Below are positions 19,588-28,472 of a DNA stretch of 32,000 nt, one piece after another (position 1 is the first letter of the stretch; each line of letters opens with the position of its first letter). The notes under the pieces are model-generated. The model made no database searches. It had not been told where the DNA came from and saw nothing but the letters and a program-made list of their open reading frames with translations. Source of the stretch: Opitutales bacterium (GTDB lineage Bacteria > Verrucomicrobiota > Verrucomicrobiia > Opitutales > UBA9783); assembly GCA_046881885.1 (NCBI GenBank), contig JBKSMP010000021.1, positions 43,046-75,045 of the forward strand. The letters run 5' to 3'. The translations under genes were made by a program, and so were the position numbers.

Positions 19588-19646
19588 TGTGACAGTGTTT
19601 TACGAGTGATCATGCCGGATAGAGGACGTTTTTGACGACTGTCACA
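19588..19646. repeat. inverted pair of TGTGACAGT motifs (19588-19596 and reverse complement 19638-19646), 41-bp spacer
   Basis: Read directly. It is the same 9-mer family as the iteron cluster at 24420-24524 and lies ~240-300 bp upstream of the integrase start. Confidence 0.6.
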
Positions 19647-19884
19647 GTTGTCAAAAAGGAGATAAATACAACAACCGATTGTAGAAATTTCACCGCGGAA
19701 AGTTTTCATAACCTGTGCTAAACACAAAGACGAATATTGGGTGTTAGTCATTTGATAGAATCTGTAAGATTCTTTGCAAGTATTCCCTCCCAACCTTAAA
19801 TTAAAAGCAACATCCAAATCTTACCACACTGGATATATTTTGACAAATTTTTATCTAAAAGGTTGCAACAGAAAGAATAAGTTT

Positions 19885-20511
19885 ATGGCAACGTATAAGG
19901 AAAATTTAACCCAAGGTTTTATTGATAAAATTTCTACCCATAAAACCAACGGAAGCAAATCTGCATTCGATAGTTATTATGACACCAAAGAGCGCGGATT
20001 GGTTTTGTTGGTAACGACGAATGGCGTAAAAACGTTTTATCTGCTTACGAAAATTCAAGGTCGTACTCGGTGGATAAAGATAGGACGTTTTCCGGAATTG
20101 ACCGTTACAAATGCCCGTGAGGTAGCTCAATTGTACAAAGCGCAATTGGCTAAGGGGGAAGATCCTGAAGTTAAAAAGAAGCAATTGAAAGCGGAATTAA
20201 CGTTCGGCGAGCTCTTTAAAATGTTCATGGAACGCTACTCCAAACCGCAGAAACGATCTTGGAAGGAAGATGATCGGACCATCAACAAATACTATCACCA
20301 TTGGTTCAATCGCAAATTGTCTGCGATTTCCAAATACGATGTTAATTTGTACCACAACCAATTGCGTGCTGAACGCGGAATTTACGTTGCTAATCGAATG
20401 CTGGAGCGATTGAAGACCATGTACAACAAAGCGATCGAATGTGGTTGGAACGGCGAAAATCCGGCCATCGGCATTAAAATGTTCAAAAGACCTACTCTTT
20501 ACTTTGGATAA
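19885..20511 (+). pseudogene. P4-type tyrosine integrase, N-terminal ~208 aa only (catalytic domain deleted)
   Basis: Arm-binding DUF4102-like N-terminus ('ERGLVLLVTTNGVKTFYL...IKIGRFPELTVTNAREVA') and the start of the core-binding domain. Similarity ends after 'NPAIGIKMFK' with a stop at 20511. No R-H-R-Y domain follows. Confidence 0.75.
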
Positions 20512-20706
20512 TGAGATTATTACTTCTTACGAAAAGGTACTTGTGGATTTTTTGAAAATCTTAAAAAAAATCAATATAACACACGAAAAAACAAACTTCA
20601 AGAATTCCTTAAAGTTGTACAATCAAGTCAATTTGTTAAAATATTAGGAATAATACAAAAGATTCAGATATTTTCTTATGTTTGTTTATGTAAAAAAAAT
20701 AGCCTA

Positions 20707-21225
20707 ATGGAATTGAGAAAAAATATTTCAGAAGCCAAAGTTGGTCTCGAACAATGTGCCAATGCATTATTAAAAATATGGGAAAAAATCAGACAAGATA
20801 AGGATTTTCCCCAAAATCTAGATCTTTGGGAGCCAAAAATAAAAAATTTACTTCAAGTGTTCTATAACACAGCGTCCGATATTTATGCCCTAAATAAGGA
20901 TTGCGAGACAAAAGATCTTATCTTTAATGCACAAACAGAAAATGTAAAATTGCTGGAATATGAGGATTTTTTAAATAATTCTTGCAGCTATACCGAAACA
21001 GAGTTTGGGCTGGTTGATGTAAACTTGCATCAATTTTTTACAAATAACTACAATAGTCCTCATTGGTTATGGATCGCAGAGTTTTTAAACTGTTTATTTG
21101 ACCGCGCAGAAACAGAAAGTTCAATGAGAAATAATTTAAAAAACCAATTGCAACAAACTGTAGTATTGTTACCACACATCGGTCTTTATTATCTGAAAAA
21201 AAAGGATGAAAAGAAAACTTTATAA
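20707..21225 (+). CDS. hypothetical protein (172 aa), no recognisable domain
   Basis: Clean ORF with an ATG start in AT-rich DNA between the integrase remnant and hipA. Converges on hipA with a 6-nt overlap. Confidence 0.5.
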   Translation: MELRKNISEAKVGLEQCANALLKIWEKIRQDKDFPQNLDLWEPKIKNLLQVFYNTASDIYALNKDCETKDLIFNAQTENVKLLEYEDFLNNSCSYTETEFGLVDVNLHQFFTNNYNSPHWLWIAEFLNCLFDRAETESSMRNNLKNQLQQTVVLLPHIGLYYLKKKDEKKTL

Positions 21226-22443
21226 AACATGCTGAAAAGCAGGTTCCATCTCTTCTTGTTCAGAAGCACTTAAGCCGAAATACTGCGCAATAGATCGCCA
21301 TTGAGCGACAGCCGAGCGTTGTTTGGTTAGAATAGCGTTGGCTTCTTGCTTCGTAAGACGGAAATACTCAGAAACCGATAGTGCTAAATCGATCGAAGTT
21401 GAACTGTCATCTTCTGTGATGTTAAGTTGCAAATGAGAAGTTCTGTCCGGATTGGGATTAACATCGTAAAGTGGCGAAAGTTCGAGCCCATGTGGAGAAT
21501 TTCTTAAAAATCCATGATTGCGCAAATGATCATCTGTGTTGGAAATAAGAATTGAAAACAGCATTCGGCTCCAGAGTTCTCGCAGGTCGTTTTTTACATG
21601 GACACATCGAGTGGTTATAATGTCCGCAAGATTCAAATAGCTGTAATTTCCACTTTCACCATCGTTGGCATTTAACAATGTCATGGCTGAAAAAAATGGA
21701 ATTCTTTTTTCTCCCTGTCGATCAAAACGTTTTGCCAATAAAACAAGTTTATTGTTAATCGTTACCATACGCCATTGTTGTACGCGCAATCCAGCTTGTT
21801 GAGCCAACGTTAGTGCGACAGCTTCCCAATGAACCGCATTATCATTTTGTTTAGGGAATTTGGCTATATATAAATTTTTTCCGTCCACAACAGATGCTTT
21901 GGGACGAGACCCACCAAGCGAAGAACCGGGAATGAGTAGTTCTTTTAAGTCGCTAAAAGTTTCGTTATGAGTTAAGACATTTTCTGAAGCCATCAGCAAT
22001 TTGGATAAGGTCATAATGGACGGAATTTTTTTGCCCGTTTGTGTTAAAAAATCCCCTTTAGGCTCTCTTTTAAACCGCAGTGCTCCTTGACGCGAAAAAT
22101 CATTCAATTGCGTCAAAAAATCAATTTCTCGGAACTGTCGGCGAGGACGTTTTTCTGCTTGAGCCATTTTTGCTTCGTTTCTCTTAATAAGCAAACGTCC
22201 CCAAGAATCTGGTGCACAATCCTCAAATGAAGCAAACAATGCCTTTCGATTGTCCGTATGGAATGTACCCTCTGTTAATGGTAAAAATGGTTCCAGTTCG
22301 AAATTATTCAGATACCTTAGCCAAGATTCTTCGTATTTAAAGGAGGCACTTTCTTTTCCATTGTGATAGTACGACCAAAGCCGACCTACCGGGACATCTT
22401 GGCCGTCCAAATTGCAATAAACATAAAAAAGTGCTTCACTCAT
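21220..22443 (-). CDS. hipA: HipA-family serine/threonine kinase toxin
   Basis: N-terminal coupling domain ('VGRL...F.Y...W', 'APDSWGR') and kinase core ('GSSLGGSRPKA', catalytic loop 'ISNTDDHLRNHGFL'). 4-nt overlap with the upstream HTH gene. Confidence 0.85.
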   Translation of the reverse strand: MSEALFYVYCNLDGQDVPVGRLWSYYHNGKESASFKYEESWLRYLNNFELEPFLPLTEGTFHTDNRKALFASFEDCAPDSWGRLLIKRNEAKMAQAEKRPRRQFREIDFLTQLNDFSRQGALRFKREPKGDFLTQTGKKIPSIMTLSKLLMASENVLTHNETFSDLKELLIPGSSLGGSRPKASVVDGKNLYIAKFPKQNDNAVHWEAVALTLAQQAGLRVQQWRMVTINNKLVLLAKRFDRQGEKRIPFFSAMTLLNANDGESGNYSYLNLADIITTRCVHVKNDLRELWSRMLFSILISNTDDHLRNHGFLRNSPHGLELSPLYDVNPNPDRTSHLQLNITEDDSSTSIDLALSVSEYFRLTKQEANAILTKQRSAVAQWRSIAQYFGLSASEQEEMEPAFQHVL

Positions 22444-27339: not shown

Positions 27340-27472
27340 ATCACTTTAATATATCGGCCATTTTTTAAAAAACTTTAGTGTTTTTTTAATTTTTTTGAAA
27401 AATTTTATGAAAAAAGCCTAAAATCTTCAAAATTCATATGCGGAGGAGCGTAATTAAGGAATACCTCACATC

Positions 27473-27528
27473 CACTAAGAAAACTTAGTCAATTATCTTT
27501 TCTTAGTAAATTTCACTAAGAAAACTTA
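27473..27528. repeat. 15-bp perfect direct repeat CACTAAGAAAACTTA (27473-27487, 27514-27528) with an inverted core TTTTCTTAGT (27498-27507) between the copies
   Basis: Read directly. Lies between the stop of the 295-aa ORF and the zincin gene, and allows two mutually exclusive 10-bp hairpins. Confidence 0.6.
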
Positions 27529-27530
27529 AT

Positions 27531-28418
27531 TTACCAAACAAACCCAAAACTCATCTGCCCATATCCTTGTAAAGAGCGTAACAAACGGAGATTCTTCTCG
27601 ATAGAGCGTTGTAAGTGTGTTTCGTAGCGGATGACCTTGTCGGTGTTTTCTGCGGATGGCAATTGCGCAACAGATTCGTAAATGGAGTGCTTGTGATCGA
27701 ATTCTTGGAGATTATTCTCGTAATAATTCGGCATATTGCTACCCGAGCGTAGTTTGTTTTCAATGCGATCTAATAAATCCTGCTTAAATGTTTCAATTTC
27801 AATATCATTTTGTTCGCAAAAATCACGCAGATTTTCGCATTCATGCAAGTAATCAATCTCTACTTTCTCATAAATTTCTGGAAAACGCTGTTTCACTCTT
27901 TGAATTACTTCAAATAACAGTTCATAAATTTCACCCGAAAGTTCCGATAAATTATCAAGAGTACCATTATTTATCAAATTTTTGAGTTGATTCAAATTTT
28001 CCAGCTCAGACTTGTAGCTTTCAAGATGACCGACAAGTACTTCTCGCCTACTCAAGTCTACCGGTGAATCTGATGTGTCCAGATTCAACATCTCCAATTG
28101 ACTTGCGCCTTGTTCAAATGCAAGCACTTTCCGTAACCGCCAAACATCAACTGAGATTTTCTCGCACAAAACCGATTGCATCGCATCCTTCGGCTTCAAA
28201 CTTTCAACTAATCCCAATTTTAGAACCTCAAAATTTTGCAATTCTTCAGCAGAAACATTTTTTATCAATTCCTTCGCGAAAATCCCATGTTTTACAGCAT
28301 TTAAAGCTGATTTCCCCTTTCCTAACGCCGTCTTCGGTCCAGTCGACAACTGCGCATTTTTTCGGTTCGCCGATAATTTCTGCAATGATAAGTCTCCCAT
28401 ATATCTATTATCATCCAA
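27531..28418 (-). CDS. hypothetical protein (295 aa): basic N-terminal motif plus acidic helical body
   Basis: TTG start. N-terminus is 'ANRKNAQLSTGPKTALGKGKSALNAVKHGIFA'. The rest is Glu/Leu/Asn-rich and probably helical. No signal peptide. Confidence 0.55.
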   Translation of the reverse strand: MDDNRYMGDLSLQKLSANRKNAQLSTGPKTALGKGKSALNAVKHGIFAKELIKNVSAEELQNFEVLKLGLVESLKPKDAMQSVLCEKISVDVWRLRKVLAFEQGASQLEMLNLDTSDSPVDLSRREVLVGHLESYKSELENLNQLKNLINNGTLDNLSELSGEIYELLFEVIQRVKQRFPEIYEKVEIDYLHECENLRDFCEQNDIEIETFKQDLLDRIENKLRSGSNMPNYYENNLQEFDHKHSIYESVAQLPSAENTDKVIRYETHLQRSIEKNLRLLRSLQGYGQMSFGFVW

Positions 28419-28472
28419 ATGAGCCGGAAAGGCAAAAATTATTCGATATTTTGCTTAAAAACTATTACTTAA

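What the first reader, a model, noticed from the sequence alone, without database searches (positions are those of the whole stretch)
19588..28470. Immobilised self-replicating-type genomic island in the tRNA-His accessory tract
The gene order is integrase' (N-terminal 208 aa only), orf172, hipA-hipB (reverse), AlpA/excisionase-like HTH, DUF3987 protein, iteron cluster, AEP primase-like protein, cargo. The pattern int / accessory slot / alpA / primase-helicase matches P4-like satellites and PICI-type islands. This element differs in splitting replication between a DUF3987 protein and a separate AEP-like primase. It also has no visible capsid-redirection or packaging genes. The integrase catalytic domain is gone, so the element should be locked in place. 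Yet hipBA, the HTH, DUF3987, primase-like and cargo ORFs are all intact, which suggests domestication. It sits 5 kb from tRNA-His, separated from it by a second, more decayed accessory block. That fits serial insertions at one tRNA. I found no copy of the tRNA 3' end or other att-like direct repeat by eye.
Basis: partly seen in the sequence, partly recalled or inferred. Interest (0 to 1): 0.65.

Follow-up and report, generated by a model that had tools for sequence, protein, structure and literature searches.

The report
Crippled self-replicating genomic island remnant
This stretch is the disabled, vertically inherited remnant of a small mobile element of gut Opitutales bacteria that normally inserts at a tRNA-Met gene and carries its own DNA-replication genes. 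It is a fairly ordinary kind of island, but its primase belongs to a large protein family that Pfam does not model.

Summary
All listed ORFs, domains and the GTGACA cluster are present. The integrase stops at 208 aa, and there is no tRNA-His repeat.

The interpretation needs four corrections.

- Intact relatives in other uncultured gut Opitutales contigs have the order int(372-401 aa) - orf321/326 - [hipBA optional] - Xis-type HTH - DUF3987 - GTGACA module - AEP primase - cargo - orf289. They carry a 47-66 nt tRNA-Met 3' fragment beside int. The family therefore targets tRNA-Met, not tRNA-His.
- 'orf172' is not accessory. One ~840 bp deletion removed the int catalytic domain and the first ~85 codons of the conserved neighbour gene. 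orf172 is that gene's C-terminal stump.
- The sequence 14.7-15.5 kb is core genome in conspecific strains. The decayed block 15.97-19.68 kb is DNA linked to the same element family, joined in circularly permuted order at a recombination hot spot ('J', core CTGTTATTATCAG). It is not a separate insertion at tRNA-His.
- Domestication is not supported. The dead int fragment itself shows dN/dS 0.04 against an intact relative, so the decay looks recent.

The AEP assignment is well supported by PHROG, a PDB profile search and a pLDDT 93 model whose best fold match is a cyanophage S-2L PrimPol. The helicase role of DUF3987 is inferred.

Verdict: a new variant of a known kind, of moderate interest.

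The parts
15509..15940 (.). First non-syntenic DNA after the conserved murG-tRNA-His-orf68-cupin block. Origin unknown.
   Evidence: Conspecific contigs L022-L029 join window 15508 directly to window 5733. L011 does the same. No homology to element proteins.
15941..16024 (+). Left copy of the 'J' site: arm c (15941-15966), invariant core CTGTTATTATCAG (15973-15985), arm b (15983-16024).
   Evidence: The core is invariant in L002-L006, L008, L020, L021 and the window. Arm c is 26/26 identical to L020 8920-8945 but inverted. It forms a direct repeat with 28399-28452: score 27 against shuffles 11.3+-2.0, 0/2000.
16016..16185 (+). Conserved segment that follows J in L002 and L008 ('J-right').
   Evidence: 77% identical to L002 13953-14188 and L008 13003-13217.
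16221..17013 (-). Glycerophosphotransferase (Glyphos_transf) pseudogene in three ORF fragments.
   Evidence: Pfam PF04464 on one fragment. 76% nt identity to the intact 377-aa gene of L002/L020.
17185..19065 (+). Truncated PPDK_N/PEP-utilising enzyme gene (626 of ~993 aa).
   Evidence: Pfam PF01326. Homologues of 992-993 aa with a PEP-utilizers domain occur in L002/L020.
19040..19516 (+). Remnants of a nucleotidyltransferase C-terminus (orf119) and of the start of orf436.
   Evidence: 85.8% identical to L020 11886-11416, spanning the NTP_transferase/orf436 junction.
19494..19574 (+). 27-codon remnant of a ResIII-type restriction/helicase gene.
   Evidence: tblastn against L008 ResIII aa 873-899, 67%. 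blastn 90% to L008 17998-18050.
19587..19676 (-). Second, truncated and inverted copy of the GTGACA module ('it2').
   Evidence: 78.6% identical to window 24488-24419. Aligns with it2/it3 of L002/L008.
19885..20511 (+). int': N-terminal 208 aa of a P4-type tyrosine integrase. The catalytic domain is deleted.
   Evidence: Arm-DNA-bind_3 only. 94% identical to aa 1-201 of the 389-aa L008 integrase. The same allele occurs in L095/L096.
20487..20500 (.). Junction of the ~840 bp deletion (L008 5140-5977 missing).
   Evidence: blastn/tblastn of window 20380-21000 against L008.
20483..21225 (+). Remnant of backbone gene orf321/326 (aa ~84-326, frame-disrupted). 'orf172' (20707-21225) is its longest ORF.
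21220..22760 (-). hipB-hipA type II toxin-antitoxin pair, in the variable slot between orf326 and xis.
   Evidence: Pfam/NCBIfam. Present in L008, absent in L002/L033, decayed in L020. dN/dS 0.07.
22907..23146 (+). Excisionase-family HTH_17 protein (Xis/AlpA-like role).
   Evidence: PF12728 6.5e-12, TIGR01764 2e-11. Always precedes the helicase/primase genes in relatives.
23139..24443 (+). DUF3987 P-loop protein, putative replicative helicase/initiator.
   Evidence: PF13148 1.7e-51; phrog_2373 'DNA helicase' 1e-41. Invariant Walker A G96-K97-T98 and V134-E135-D136. Phage 'DNA primase/helicase' homologue 5e-30. 22% identical to E. coli YfjI.
24419..24523 (+). GTGACA repeat module 'it1' (2 direct, 1 inverted, 3 direct repeats): putative origin of replication.
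   Evidence: Architecture conserved in L002, L008 and L020 and in extra copies it2/it3. Pontiella has different inverted repeats at the same position.
24539..25459 (+). Stand-alone AEP primase/PrimPol-like protein (N-terminal helical domain plus C-terminal AEP domain).
   Evidence: phrog_2597 7e-15. PDB profile hit 6zp9, 8.4e-5. AF2 pLDDT 92.9. Foldseek 6zp9 3e-5 and RepB' 7.5e-3. BFVD primase-helicases down to 1e-12.
25465..27339 (-). Two cargo genes (orf236, orf368) with signal-peptide-like N-termini. orf368 has an HExxH motif.
   Evidence: No Pfam/PHROG/PADLOC/PDB hits. This position holds different genes in L002, L008 and L020.
27531..28418 (-). orf289/295: conserved backbone gene of unknown function next to J.
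   Evidence: Homologues occur at the same position in L002, L008, L020 and L033. dN/dS 0.16.
28399..28452 (+). Right, degenerate copy of J (arm a, core-like CTATTATCAT, b-like arm): right edge of the island.
   Evidence: It is followed by the SSF-histidine-kinase terminator hairpin at 28474-28497. The Logan contig ends at 28459.

Best explanation
Window ~15.5-28.46 kb is the decayed, chromosomally fixed remnant of one family of small integrative elements of gut Opitutales (Verrucomicrobiota).

**Intact relatives.** The backbone is a P4-type tyrosine integrase, orf321/326 (unknown function), an optional hipBA, an excisionase-type HTH, a DUF3987 P-loop protein, a ~105 bp GTGACA repeat module, a stand-alone AEP primase, a variable cargo slot, orf289, the J site, then more variable cargo and one or two further GTGACA modules. 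These elements sit at the 3' end of tRNA-Met.

**Inferred working of an intact element.** Int and Xis excise the element as a circle. The DUF3987 protein (helicase/initiator) and the AEP primase then replicate it from the GTGACA origin. The distant extra module may act like the P4 crr or as copy control. hipBA penalises loss of the element.

**The window copy.**
- A single ~840 bp deletion fused int codon ~201 to orf326 codon ~85.
- The tRNA-Met att fragment is gone.
- The cargo side is riddled with deletions.
- The gene order is circularly permuted at J, beside a rearrangement breakpoint of the host chromosome.

The copy can no longer excise. The replication genes, hipBA and cargo are still intact, most simply because the damage is recent.

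**Shown versus inferred.** Shown: homology, architecture, the deletion, att specificity in relatives, the AEP fold, and inheritance of the dead allele. Inferred: excision, origin function, helicase activity, and the crr-like role.
For: - **Relatives and gene order:**
- **tRNA-Met att:** fragments lie next to int in four relatives and a full tRNA-Met in L002. None is found in the window.
- **Deletion:** int' is aa 1-201 of the L008 int at 94% identity. orf172 is the C-terminus of orf326. The deletion is mapped to L008 5140-5977.
- **Active family:** the cluster at >=90% identity holds 60 integrases, mostly full-length 389 aa.
- **Inherited dead allele:** it recurs at 99.3-99.4% identity in two further samples.
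- **Island status:** conspecific contigs from at least 5 samples join 15508 to 5733. An SSF-HK relative lacks the element genes downstream.
- **AEP:**. Invariant E205/D207, S233-G234-x-K236-S237-x-H239 and D272.
- **DUF3987:**
- **Repeat module:** conserved in three copy types, with a lineage-specific analogue in Pontiella.
- **Helicase swapping next to the same AEP:** DUF3987 here, DUF5906 in Pontiella, AAA_25 in a Desulfobacterium MAG.
- **Low dN/dS in every gene, including the dead int' (0.04):**
- **Permutation and J repeat:**
Against: - No circular form, excision junction or coverage excess was examined. Mobility and replication of the family rest on inference.
- The right-hand att (a full tRNA-Met at the far end) was not seen for any relative within the fetched DNA. 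L002 shows an unexplained inverted tRNA-Met repeat.
- DUF3987 has no solved homologue and the AF2 model failed (pLDDT 44.7). 'Helicase' therefore rests on PHROG names and P-loop motifs.
- The GTGACA module abuts the AEP start codon and could be an operator rather than an origin.
- The exact right boundary and the joints at 15780-15792 and 28459 are not covered by independent contigs.
- dN/dS against L008 mixes time before and after the deletion, so weak ongoing selection on the intact genes cannot be excluded.
Confidence: 0.75

Rival explanations
1. Domestication. After immobilisation the host keeps the replication module, hipBA and cargo under selection for its own benefit, for example defence, stress persistence, or in situ amplification of neighbouring genes.
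For: - hipBA, xis, DUF3987, AEP and three downstream ORFs are intact.
- The dead-int allele persists in at least 3 samples at ~99.3% identity.
- dN/dS is 0.07-0.17.
Against: - The certainly non-functional int' fragment has the lowest dN/dS (0.04) and no stop in 201 codons. Intactness therefore does not discriminate.
- The neighbouring orf326, GT, PPDK, NTP-transferase and ResIII genes are already broken.
- hipA decays in another copy (L020).
- TA modules persist without host benefit (established knowledge).
Confidence: 0.1
2. The family is a phage satellite (P4-like or PICI-like) that depends on a helper phage for induction and packaging. The window copy is a dead satellite.
For: - The layout int / accessory / small HTH / primase-helicase functions resembles P4, PICI and CP4-57.
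- Cargo in relatives is defence-like: Fic, RM, hipBA, RloB/AAA_21.
- Two separated repeat clusters recall P4 ori/crr (my own knowledge).
Against: - No PHROG, Pfam or PADLOC hit to capsid, terminase, Psu/Sid/Delta-type or other packaging or redirection proteins in the window or in L002/L008/L020 gene lists. The only exceptions are weak HTH-level hits of Xis to terS families at 2.6e-4.
- No close relative occurs among 2.9 million IMG/VR contigs.
Confidence: 0.15
3. One reading: serial insertions at tRNA-His, with 14.7-19.6 kb an older island and 19.6-28.5 kb a younger one.
For: tRNA-His lies 5.2 kb upstream in the same orientation as int'. The intervening genes are decayed.
Against: - 14697-15508 is conserved at 97% identity in conspecific contigs and continues into core genes.
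- There is no tRNA-His repeat.
- The integrase is 94% identical to tRNA-Met-associated ones.
- The 15.97-19.68 kb block is physically linked to the same backbone in L002, L008 and L020.
Confidence: 0.03
4. The GTGACA module is a transcriptional operator/promoter for the primase gene, bound by the HTH protein, and not a replication origin.
For: it1 ends ~15 nt before the AEP start codon. Palindromic and direct short repeats are typical operators.
Against: - Copies it2/it3 keep the whole architecture but do not precede a gene. In L008 and the window they face the 3' end of ResIII.
- In P4, replication needs iterons at two separated loci (my own knowledge).
- The two roles are not mutually exclusive.
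Confidence: 0.3

Closest known systems
CP4-57 cryptic prophage of E. coli K-12 (intA - yfjH - alpA - yfjI[DUF3987] - yfjJ - abpBA ... rnlAB)
   Same: - Same order: P4-type integrase, one accessory gene, a small HTH regulator, a DUF3987 protein, then defence/TA cargo.
- YfjI is a detectable homologue of the window DUF3987 protein (22% identity, E 3e-12).
- IntA is a homologue of the family integrase (23% identity, E 4e-16).
   Different: - CP4-57 targets ssrA, not tRNA-Met.
- It has no AEP primase. YfjJ is unrelated to orf306.
- AlpA is not detectably similar to the HTH_17 protein by BLASTP.
- No GTGACA modules are known for it.
Satellite phage P4 (int, alpha primase-helicase, ori + crr iterons, psu/sid/delta)
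   Same: - tRNA-targeting integrase with an Arm-DNA-bind_3 N-terminus.
- Self-encoded primase and helicase functions.
- Short repeats at an origin plus a second repeat cluster kilobases away. P4 ori/crr is from my own knowledge; the element's it1 and it2/it3 are.
   Different: - Primase and NTPase are separate proteins of other families here (AEP + DUF3987), instead of one alpha protein.
- No Psu/Sid/Delta/Eps homologues.
- No evidence of a helper phage.
PICIs / PICI-like elements
   Same: Size class, site-specific integrase, small regulator, autonomous replication module. The description follows Hackl et al., bioRxiv 10.1101/2020.12.28.424599.
   Different: PICIs are defined by phage-sensing regulators and a packaging gene (terS or capsid protein). 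None was found here.
Cargo-carrying tycheposons of Prochlorococcus (Hackl et al.)
   Same: - tRNA-targeting tyrosine recombinase at one end facing inward, xis, and a small primase/helicase replication module.
- Several kb of cargo and no packaging genes.
- Decayed remains build up islands.
   Different: - Different phylum and habitat.
- Tycheposons are defined by a lineage-specific recombinase clade and shared hallmark profiles, which were not tested.
- The integrase here is P4-type (Arm-DNA-bind_3).
AEP primases with solved structures: cyanophage S-2L PrimPol (6zp9), RSF1010 RepB' (3h20)
   Same: Same catalytic fold. Aligned acidic motif (E-F-D), the S-G-x-K-S-x-H motif and a downstream D/R.
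   Different: - 19% and 14% identity only.
- orf306 has its own ~135-aa N-terminal helical domain.
- It belongs to a family that no Pfam model detects, with 589 representative clusters at E<=1e-30.

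Membership tests
Tyrosine (P4-type) integrase | N-terminal arm-binding domain (Arm-DNA-bind_3/DUF4102) | tested here: met
   PF13356 2.2e-15 in int'.
Tyrosine (P4-type) integrase | C-terminal catalytic domain (Phage_integrase, R-K-H-R-H-Y) | tested here: not met
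   No PF00589 hit. Only aa 1-201 of the 389-aa homologue are encoded anywhere in the window. Present in relatives.
Integrated element with att repeats | Direct repeat of the target tRNA 3' end at both ends | tested here: not met
   No tRNA-His or tRNA-Met repeat in the window. Relatives keep a tRNA-Met fragment next to int.
AEP (archaeo-eukaryotic primase) superfamily | AEP catalytic fold | tested here: met
   AF2 pLDDT 92.9. Foldseek: 6zp9 E 3.3e-5 prob 1.0; 3h20 7.5e-3; LigD-pol and human PriS follow. BFVD primase-helicases.
AEP (archaeo-eukaryotic primase) superfamily | Conserved acidic (DxD-type) and sGxxxH-type motifs | tested here: met
   E205/D207, S233 G234 K236 S237 H239 and D272 are invariant or nearly so in 54 homologues and align to 6zp9.
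AEP (archaeo-eukaryotic primase) superfamily | Primase/polymerase activity | not testable with these tools
   Needs biochemistry.
DUF3987 (PF13148) | Pfam model above gathering threshold | tested here: met
   176 bits against a cut-off of 27.
Replicative helicase (function claimed for DUF3987) | P-loop NTPase motifs and helicase fold | tested here: inconclusive
   Walker A/B-like residues are invariant and PHROG names it 'DNA helicase'. No PDB homologue and the AF2 model is unusable (pLDDT 44.7).
HipBA type II toxin-antitoxin | HipA_C kinase domain plus Couple_hipA, preceded by an overlapping HTH antitoxin gene | tested here: met
   PF07804 2.4e-44, PF13657 1.1e-5. hipB shows HTH_31/HTH_3 and TIGR03070, and its end overlaps the hipA start.
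P4-like satellite | Capsid-size and helper-control genes (sid, psu, delta, eps) | tested here: not met
   No PHROG/Pfam hits of that kind in any ORF of the island. The marker list is from my own knowledge.
P4-like satellite | Single alpha-type primase-helicase | tested here: not met
   Two separate genes of other families.
PICI | Packaging gene (terS or capsid protein) and phage-interference genes | tested here: not met
   None found. Definition as quoted.
PICI | Induction by a helper phage | not testable with these tools
   Needs experiment or virome data. No close relative in IMG/VR.
Tycheposon | Site-specific integrase at one end facing inward, replication module, cargo, tRNA target | tested here: met
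   Seen in the intact relatives L002, L008, L020 and L033. Definition.
Tycheposon | Lineage-specific tyrosine recombinase clade and shared hallmark gene profiles | not tested

The most novel reading that the evidence does not exclude
The backbone carries a dedicated cargo-exchange site, J: an invariant 13-bp CTG-N7-CAG core with ~26-50 nt arms. An unidentified recombinase would invert, excise and re-insert whole cargo blocks at this site. On this reading the window's circular permutation, the inverted GT/PPDK cluster of L020 and the different cargo behind J in L002, L008 and L033 are all products of one cassette-like system. That system rides on a tRNA-targeting replicative island and may also contribute to rearrangement of adjacent host genes.
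Probability: 0.2. Interest if true: 0.65.

Novelty: new variant of a known kind. Interest (0 to 1): 0.4.

Why it matters
The work defines, for a poorly studied gut lineage (uncultured Opitutales), a family of small replicative integrative islands and gives a worked example of how one dies: one deletion takes the integrase and its neighbour, followed by att loss and rearrangement.

More generally:
- It flags a sizeable AEP primase family that no Pfam model detects (589 to ~3,500 representative clusters). The family is always found next to an excisionase-type HTH and an exchangeable helicase (DUF3987, DUF5906 or AAA_25). That makes it a useful marker for finding such islands.
- It gives DUF3987 proteins, including E. 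coli YfjI, a testable replication context.

None of this overturns current views of P4/PICI/tycheposon-type elements.

Tried and rejected
- **tRNA-His or tRNA-Met 3'-end repeats in the window:** none.
- **An orf295-like remnant left of the left J copy, as expected from a tandem-copy model:** none.
- **Structure of DUF3987 from a 20-sequence alignment:** pLDDT 44.7, unusable. No fold search was run on it. Sequence and profile searches of the PDB were empty.
- **Exact look-up of the SSF-histidine-kinase gene:** not on record. A cluster member gave L031/L032, which show no empty site but a stray GTGACA module downstream of the gene.
- **Metagenome scan for the J core:** 62 hits, only 2 true relatives.
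- **IMG/VR scans for the J core and the GTGACA dimer:** 54 loci, none related to the island.
- **IMG/VR scan with the AEP profile:** only distant (24-42% identity) AEP domains.
- **PADLOC:** only HipA-like and HTH hits.
- **Rfam over 14-32 kb:** only the tRNA. J is therefore not a known RNA gene.
- **Literature:** full-text search failed every time and two papers could not be opened. Only the tycheposon preprint was read. Statements on P4, PICI markers, CP4-57 biology and SCCmec rest on my own knowledge.
- **The history of L002** (inverted tRNA-Met repeats) was not resolved.

Full report
**1. What is in the sequence**

The window is low-GC (~0.30-0.43 across the region). Its only tRNA is tRNA-His at 14620-14696.
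- int' 19885-20511 (208 aa)
- orf172 20707-21225
- hipA 21220-22443(-) and hipB 22440-22760(-)
- an excisionase-family HTH_17 gene 22907-23146
- a DUF3987 gene. Gene callers and homologues use the start at 23139 (434 aa).
- orf306 24539-25459
- three leftward ORFs up to 28418

Pfam, PHROG and NCBIfam support the domain calls. int' has only the arm-binding domain. A full-length relative used as a tblastn probe finds nothing beyond residue 201 anywhere in the window.

Between DUF3987 and orf306 lie five GTGACA and one GCGACA within about 100 bp. The hexamer is not enriched in the window overall (11 found, 9.65 expected). The local density is therefore far above chance: about 0.03 expected per 100 bp by my own Poisson estimate.

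No second copy of the tRNA-His 3' end exists.

**2. Organism and island status**

MurG identifies two MAGs named 'uncultured Opitutales bacterium' as close relatives (98% and 93% identity). SSF-kinase homologues are also labelled Opitutales.

Contigs from at least five other metagenome samples that encode the identical cupin protein are 95-99% identical to the window. All of them join window position 15508 directly to window position 5733. The 93% relative does the same. Two conclusions follow.
- tRNA-His, orf68 and the cupin gene (14.6-15.5 kb) are core genome. The non-syntenic DNA starts at 15509.
- The window strain carries a block interchange of core genes (5733-11016 and 11280-15508) relative to its conspecifics.

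Independent Logan contigs of one sample confirm the unusual joints at 5.7 kb and 11.0-11.3 kb. One Logan contig equals window 15792-28459 at 100%.

On the right, homology to a 93%-identical SSF-kinase locus stops at 28552. That locus has no element genes downstream. It has only a stray GTGACA module and a remnant of a small ORF that neighbours tRNA-Met in L002. A terminator-like hairpin of the kinase gene lies at 28474-28497.

**3. Intact relatives**

orf306 has 216 word-index homologues. Those at 80-89% identity lie on human-gut metagenome contigs.

Their context is: int (372-401 aa, with Phage_integrase domain) - orf321/326 - [hipBA in L008, decayed hipA in L020, none in L002/L033] - HTH_17 - DUF3987 - orf306 homologue - one to three variable genes (Fic in L008/L020) - orf289.

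About 150-190 bp upstream of int, all four relatives carry the reverse complement of the last 47-66 nt of tRNA-Met. L002 also has the complete tRNA-Met. In L008 the fragment is followed outward by the same small ORFs that follow the intact tRNA-Met in L002. It therefore has the anatomy of an attR.

The family thus targets tRNA-Met. The window has no such fragment, although its int' is 94% identical to residues 1-201 of the L008 integrase.

**4. The lesion**

orf172 is 57% identical to residues 157-326 of L008 orf326. orf326 and L002 orf321 are homologues.

DNA and translated comparisons place the break precisely. Window 20486 corresponds to L008 5139 and window 20501 to L008 5978. So 838 bp are missing: int codons ~202-389, the intergenic spacer, and the first ~85 codons of orf326. 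The orf326 remnant (20483-21225) has a further frame disruption.

The 'accessory' orf172 is therefore a pseudogene stump. The truly variable slot is the one occupied by hipBA.

The same junction, with the same upstream DNA, is found at 99.3-99.4% identity in two other samples. The dead allele is inherited in a lineage. Meanwhile, integrases at least 90% identical and full length are common; the cluster holds 60 members.

**5. The replication module**

*orf306.* It has no Pfam hit, alone or across 54 homologues. Four lines of evidence point to an AEP primase:
- It matches phrog_2597 'DNA primase' (7e-15).
- A profile of the family hits the AEP domain of cyanophage S-2L PrimPol (6zp9, 8.4e-5). 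The acidic E-F-D motif and the S-G-x-K-S-x-H motif align.
- A high-confidence model (pLDDT 92.9) has 6zp9 as its best PDB match (E 3.3e-5, prob 1.0), then RSF1010 RepB', then LigD-pol and human PriS.
- In BFVD it matches the N-terminal parts of phage primase-helicases, VirE and DUF927 proteins. Annotated phage relatives are called DNA primase or are the N-termini of 'replicative DNA helicase' fusions.

An exhaustive profile search counts 589, 3,551 and 5,409 representative clusters at E<=1e-30, 1e-10 and 1e-3. The AEP assignment is sound.

*DUF3987.* The evidence is weaker:
- It matches Pfam strongly and phrog_2373 'DNA helicase'.
- Walker A/B-like residues are invariant.
- A phage 'DNA primase/helicase' homologue scores 5e-30.
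- There is no solved relative, and the model failed.

Its helicase role is an inference.

*Distant members.* In distant members of the AEP family the partner changes while HTH_17 stays. The partner is DUF5906 in Pontiella and AAA_25 in a Desulfobacterium MAG, the latter with an integrase next to tRNA-Val.

**6. The GTGACA module**

Alignment shows a conserved ~105 bp unit:
- two direct TGTGACA
- a ~45 bp spacer
- one inverted copy
- three direct copies

It is present between DUF3987 and the AEP gene in all relatives. It also occurs as extra copies elsewhere: it2 in L002, it2 and it3 in L008. The window has a truncated, inverted second copy at 19587-19676, just upstream of int'.

The extra copies do not precede genes. 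Pontiella has different inverted repeats (GTGGAGG...) at the equivalent intergenic position.

I read the module as the origin, with the remote copy playing a crr-like or copy-control role as in P4 (P4 biology from my own knowledge). An operator function is a live alternative and is not exclusive.

**7. The left block and the permutation**

Window 15970-19676 is not a separate island at tRNA-His. In order, it contains:
- the sequence that follows orf289 in L002 and L008 (J-right, 15970-16185)
- a fragmented glycerophosphotransferase gene
- a PPDK-like gene cut to 626 of ~993 aa
- the tail of a nucleotidyltransferase gene
- the first codons of orf436
- 27 codons of a ResIII gene
- it2

All of these are found to the right of the backbone in L002, L020 or L008. 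Relative to those loci, the window order is a circular permutation opened at a site I call J.

J has a 13-mer core, CTGTTATTATCAG, that is invariant in every copy. The left copy (15967-16024) and a degenerate right copy (28399-28452) form a direct repeat. The repeat scores 27 against 11.3+-2.0 for shuffles, with 0 of 2000 shuffles and only 2 of 2965 random window pairs reaching that score.

In L020 the core is followed by the reverse complement of a 26-nt arm that is identical to window 15941-15966, and the GT/PPDK cluster is inverted. In L033 the DNA after a 43-55 nt arm is different again.

J is thus a recurrent breakpoint between the conserved backbone and variable cargo. I could not identify the enzyme or decide between three histories:
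- cassette-type site-specific recombination
- re-insertion of an excised circle through J
- tandem copies plus deletions

No orf295-like remnant lies left of the left copy, which argues against the last. This part remains unexplained and is recorded in the notebook.

**8. Is it domesticated?**

Pairwise dN/dS against L008 is low for every gene:

| Gene | dN/dS |
|---|---|
| hipA | 0.07 |
| hipB | 0.07 |
| xis | 0.17 |
| DUF3987 | 0.16 |
| AEP | 0.16 |
| orf295 | 0.16 |
| int' fragment | 0.04 |
| orf172 | 0.27 |

The int' value comes with dS 0.63.

A fragment that cannot work yet looks as clean as the intact genes means that most divergence predates the lesion. The intact state of the other genes therefore carries little information. 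The cargo-side genes and orf326 are already broken, and hipA is decaying in L020.

Domestication is possible but unsupported. Recent decay plus TA self-maintenance is the simpler reading.

**9. Comparison with known systems**

*CP4-57.* The gene order parallels E. coli CP4-57 (intA - yfjH - alpA - yfjI[DUF3987] - yfjJ - defence genes). YfjI and IntA are detectable distant homologues. CP4-57 lacks the AEP.

*P4 and PICIs.* The element works like P4 or a PICI in having integrase, a small regulator and its own primase/helicase. It fails their defining tests: no capsid-redirection or packaging genes, and no single alpha-type protein.

*Tycheposons.* The closest concept is the cargo-carrying tycheposon. 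That has a tRNA-targeting tyrosine recombinase, xis, a small primase/helicase module and cargo, usually no packaging genes, and its remnants build up islands. Membership of that lineage was not tested.

*IMG/VR.* No close relative occurs there.

**10. Verdict**

The finding is real and is an island remnant of the general kind proposed. However:
- The att-site story, the 'accessory' orf172, the 'serial insertion' and the 'domestication' readings are not supported.
- The element is part of a larger permuted composite starting at ~15.5 kb.

It is a new variant of a known kind. The points of some wider interest are the AEP family that Pfam does not model with its exchangeable helicase partners, the multi-copy repeat module, and the J hot spot.

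Noticed in passing
window 5733-15508: The core-gene blocks Y (SBP_bac_5, ADK-like, UDG, enoyl reductase; 5733-11016) and X (LysM, ftsW, murG, tRNA-His, cupin; 11280-15508) are in the order Y-X. At least five conspecific contigs and a 93% relative have X-Y. The island begins exactly at the end of X. Logan contigs confirm the Y-X joint.
   Followed up: partly
window 7172-7976 and 8001-8812: Tandem duplication (83.8% identity) giving two adenylate-kinase-like genes. Conspecific contig L022 has a single copy.
   Followed up: partly
window 17001-17037: Perfect 17-nt inverted repeat with a 3-nt loop, between the divergent GT' and PPDK' genes. The same palindrome (91%) occurs in L031 11725-11759 near an SSF paralogue. 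A sub-threshold Rfam psRNA14 hit overlaps it (E 0.18).
   Followed up: no
window 25465-27339 (-): Cargo ORFs orf236 and orf368 both start with signal-peptide-like segments. orf368 contains HELIH (an HExxH zinc-protease-like motif). There is no hit in Pfam, PHROG, PADLOC or the PDB.
   Followed up: partly
window 31254-31874 (-), and L031 1-4614: DUF637 (haemagglutinin/CDI-type) fragment where GC rises to 0.465. The related locus L031 has SUKH immunity-like, DUF637 and DUF2380 genes upstream of the SSF-kinase gene. This suggests a polymorphic-toxin region next to the island.
   Followed up: no
L002 2679-2774 and 5890-5955: The complete tRNA-Met and a 66-nt copy of its 3' part lie in inverted orientation. 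They flank 3.1 kb that holds the small ORFs, a GTGACA module and a ResIII C-terminal gene. The arrangement looks like an att-mediated inversion and was not explained.
   Followed up: partly
L031 7648-7757 (also L032): A solitary GTGACA module (80-84% identical to it1/it3 of L008) sits ~270 bp downstream of the SSF-kinase gene in a genome that lacks the element genes there. The same chromosomal neighbourhood has therefore hosted this family before.
   Followed up: partly
L017 4170-4300 (Pontiella), L018/L019 (Desulfobacterium MAG): Distant AEP homologues keep the HTH_17 neighbour but pair with DUF5906 or AAA_25 NTPases instead of DUF3987. Pontiella has GTGGAGGGGGTGGA / TCCACCCCCTCCAC inverted repeats where the GTGACA module sits.
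   Followed up: partly
protein family of orf306: A few family members are long (669-1353 aa) and presumably fused to helicase or other domains. The family as a whole has no Pfam model.
   Followed up: no
window 4960-5643: A 227-aa PolyA_pol head-domain ORF ends 90 bp before the rearrangement breakpoint at 5733. It may be a truncated CCA-adding/poly(A) polymerase gene.
   Followed up: no
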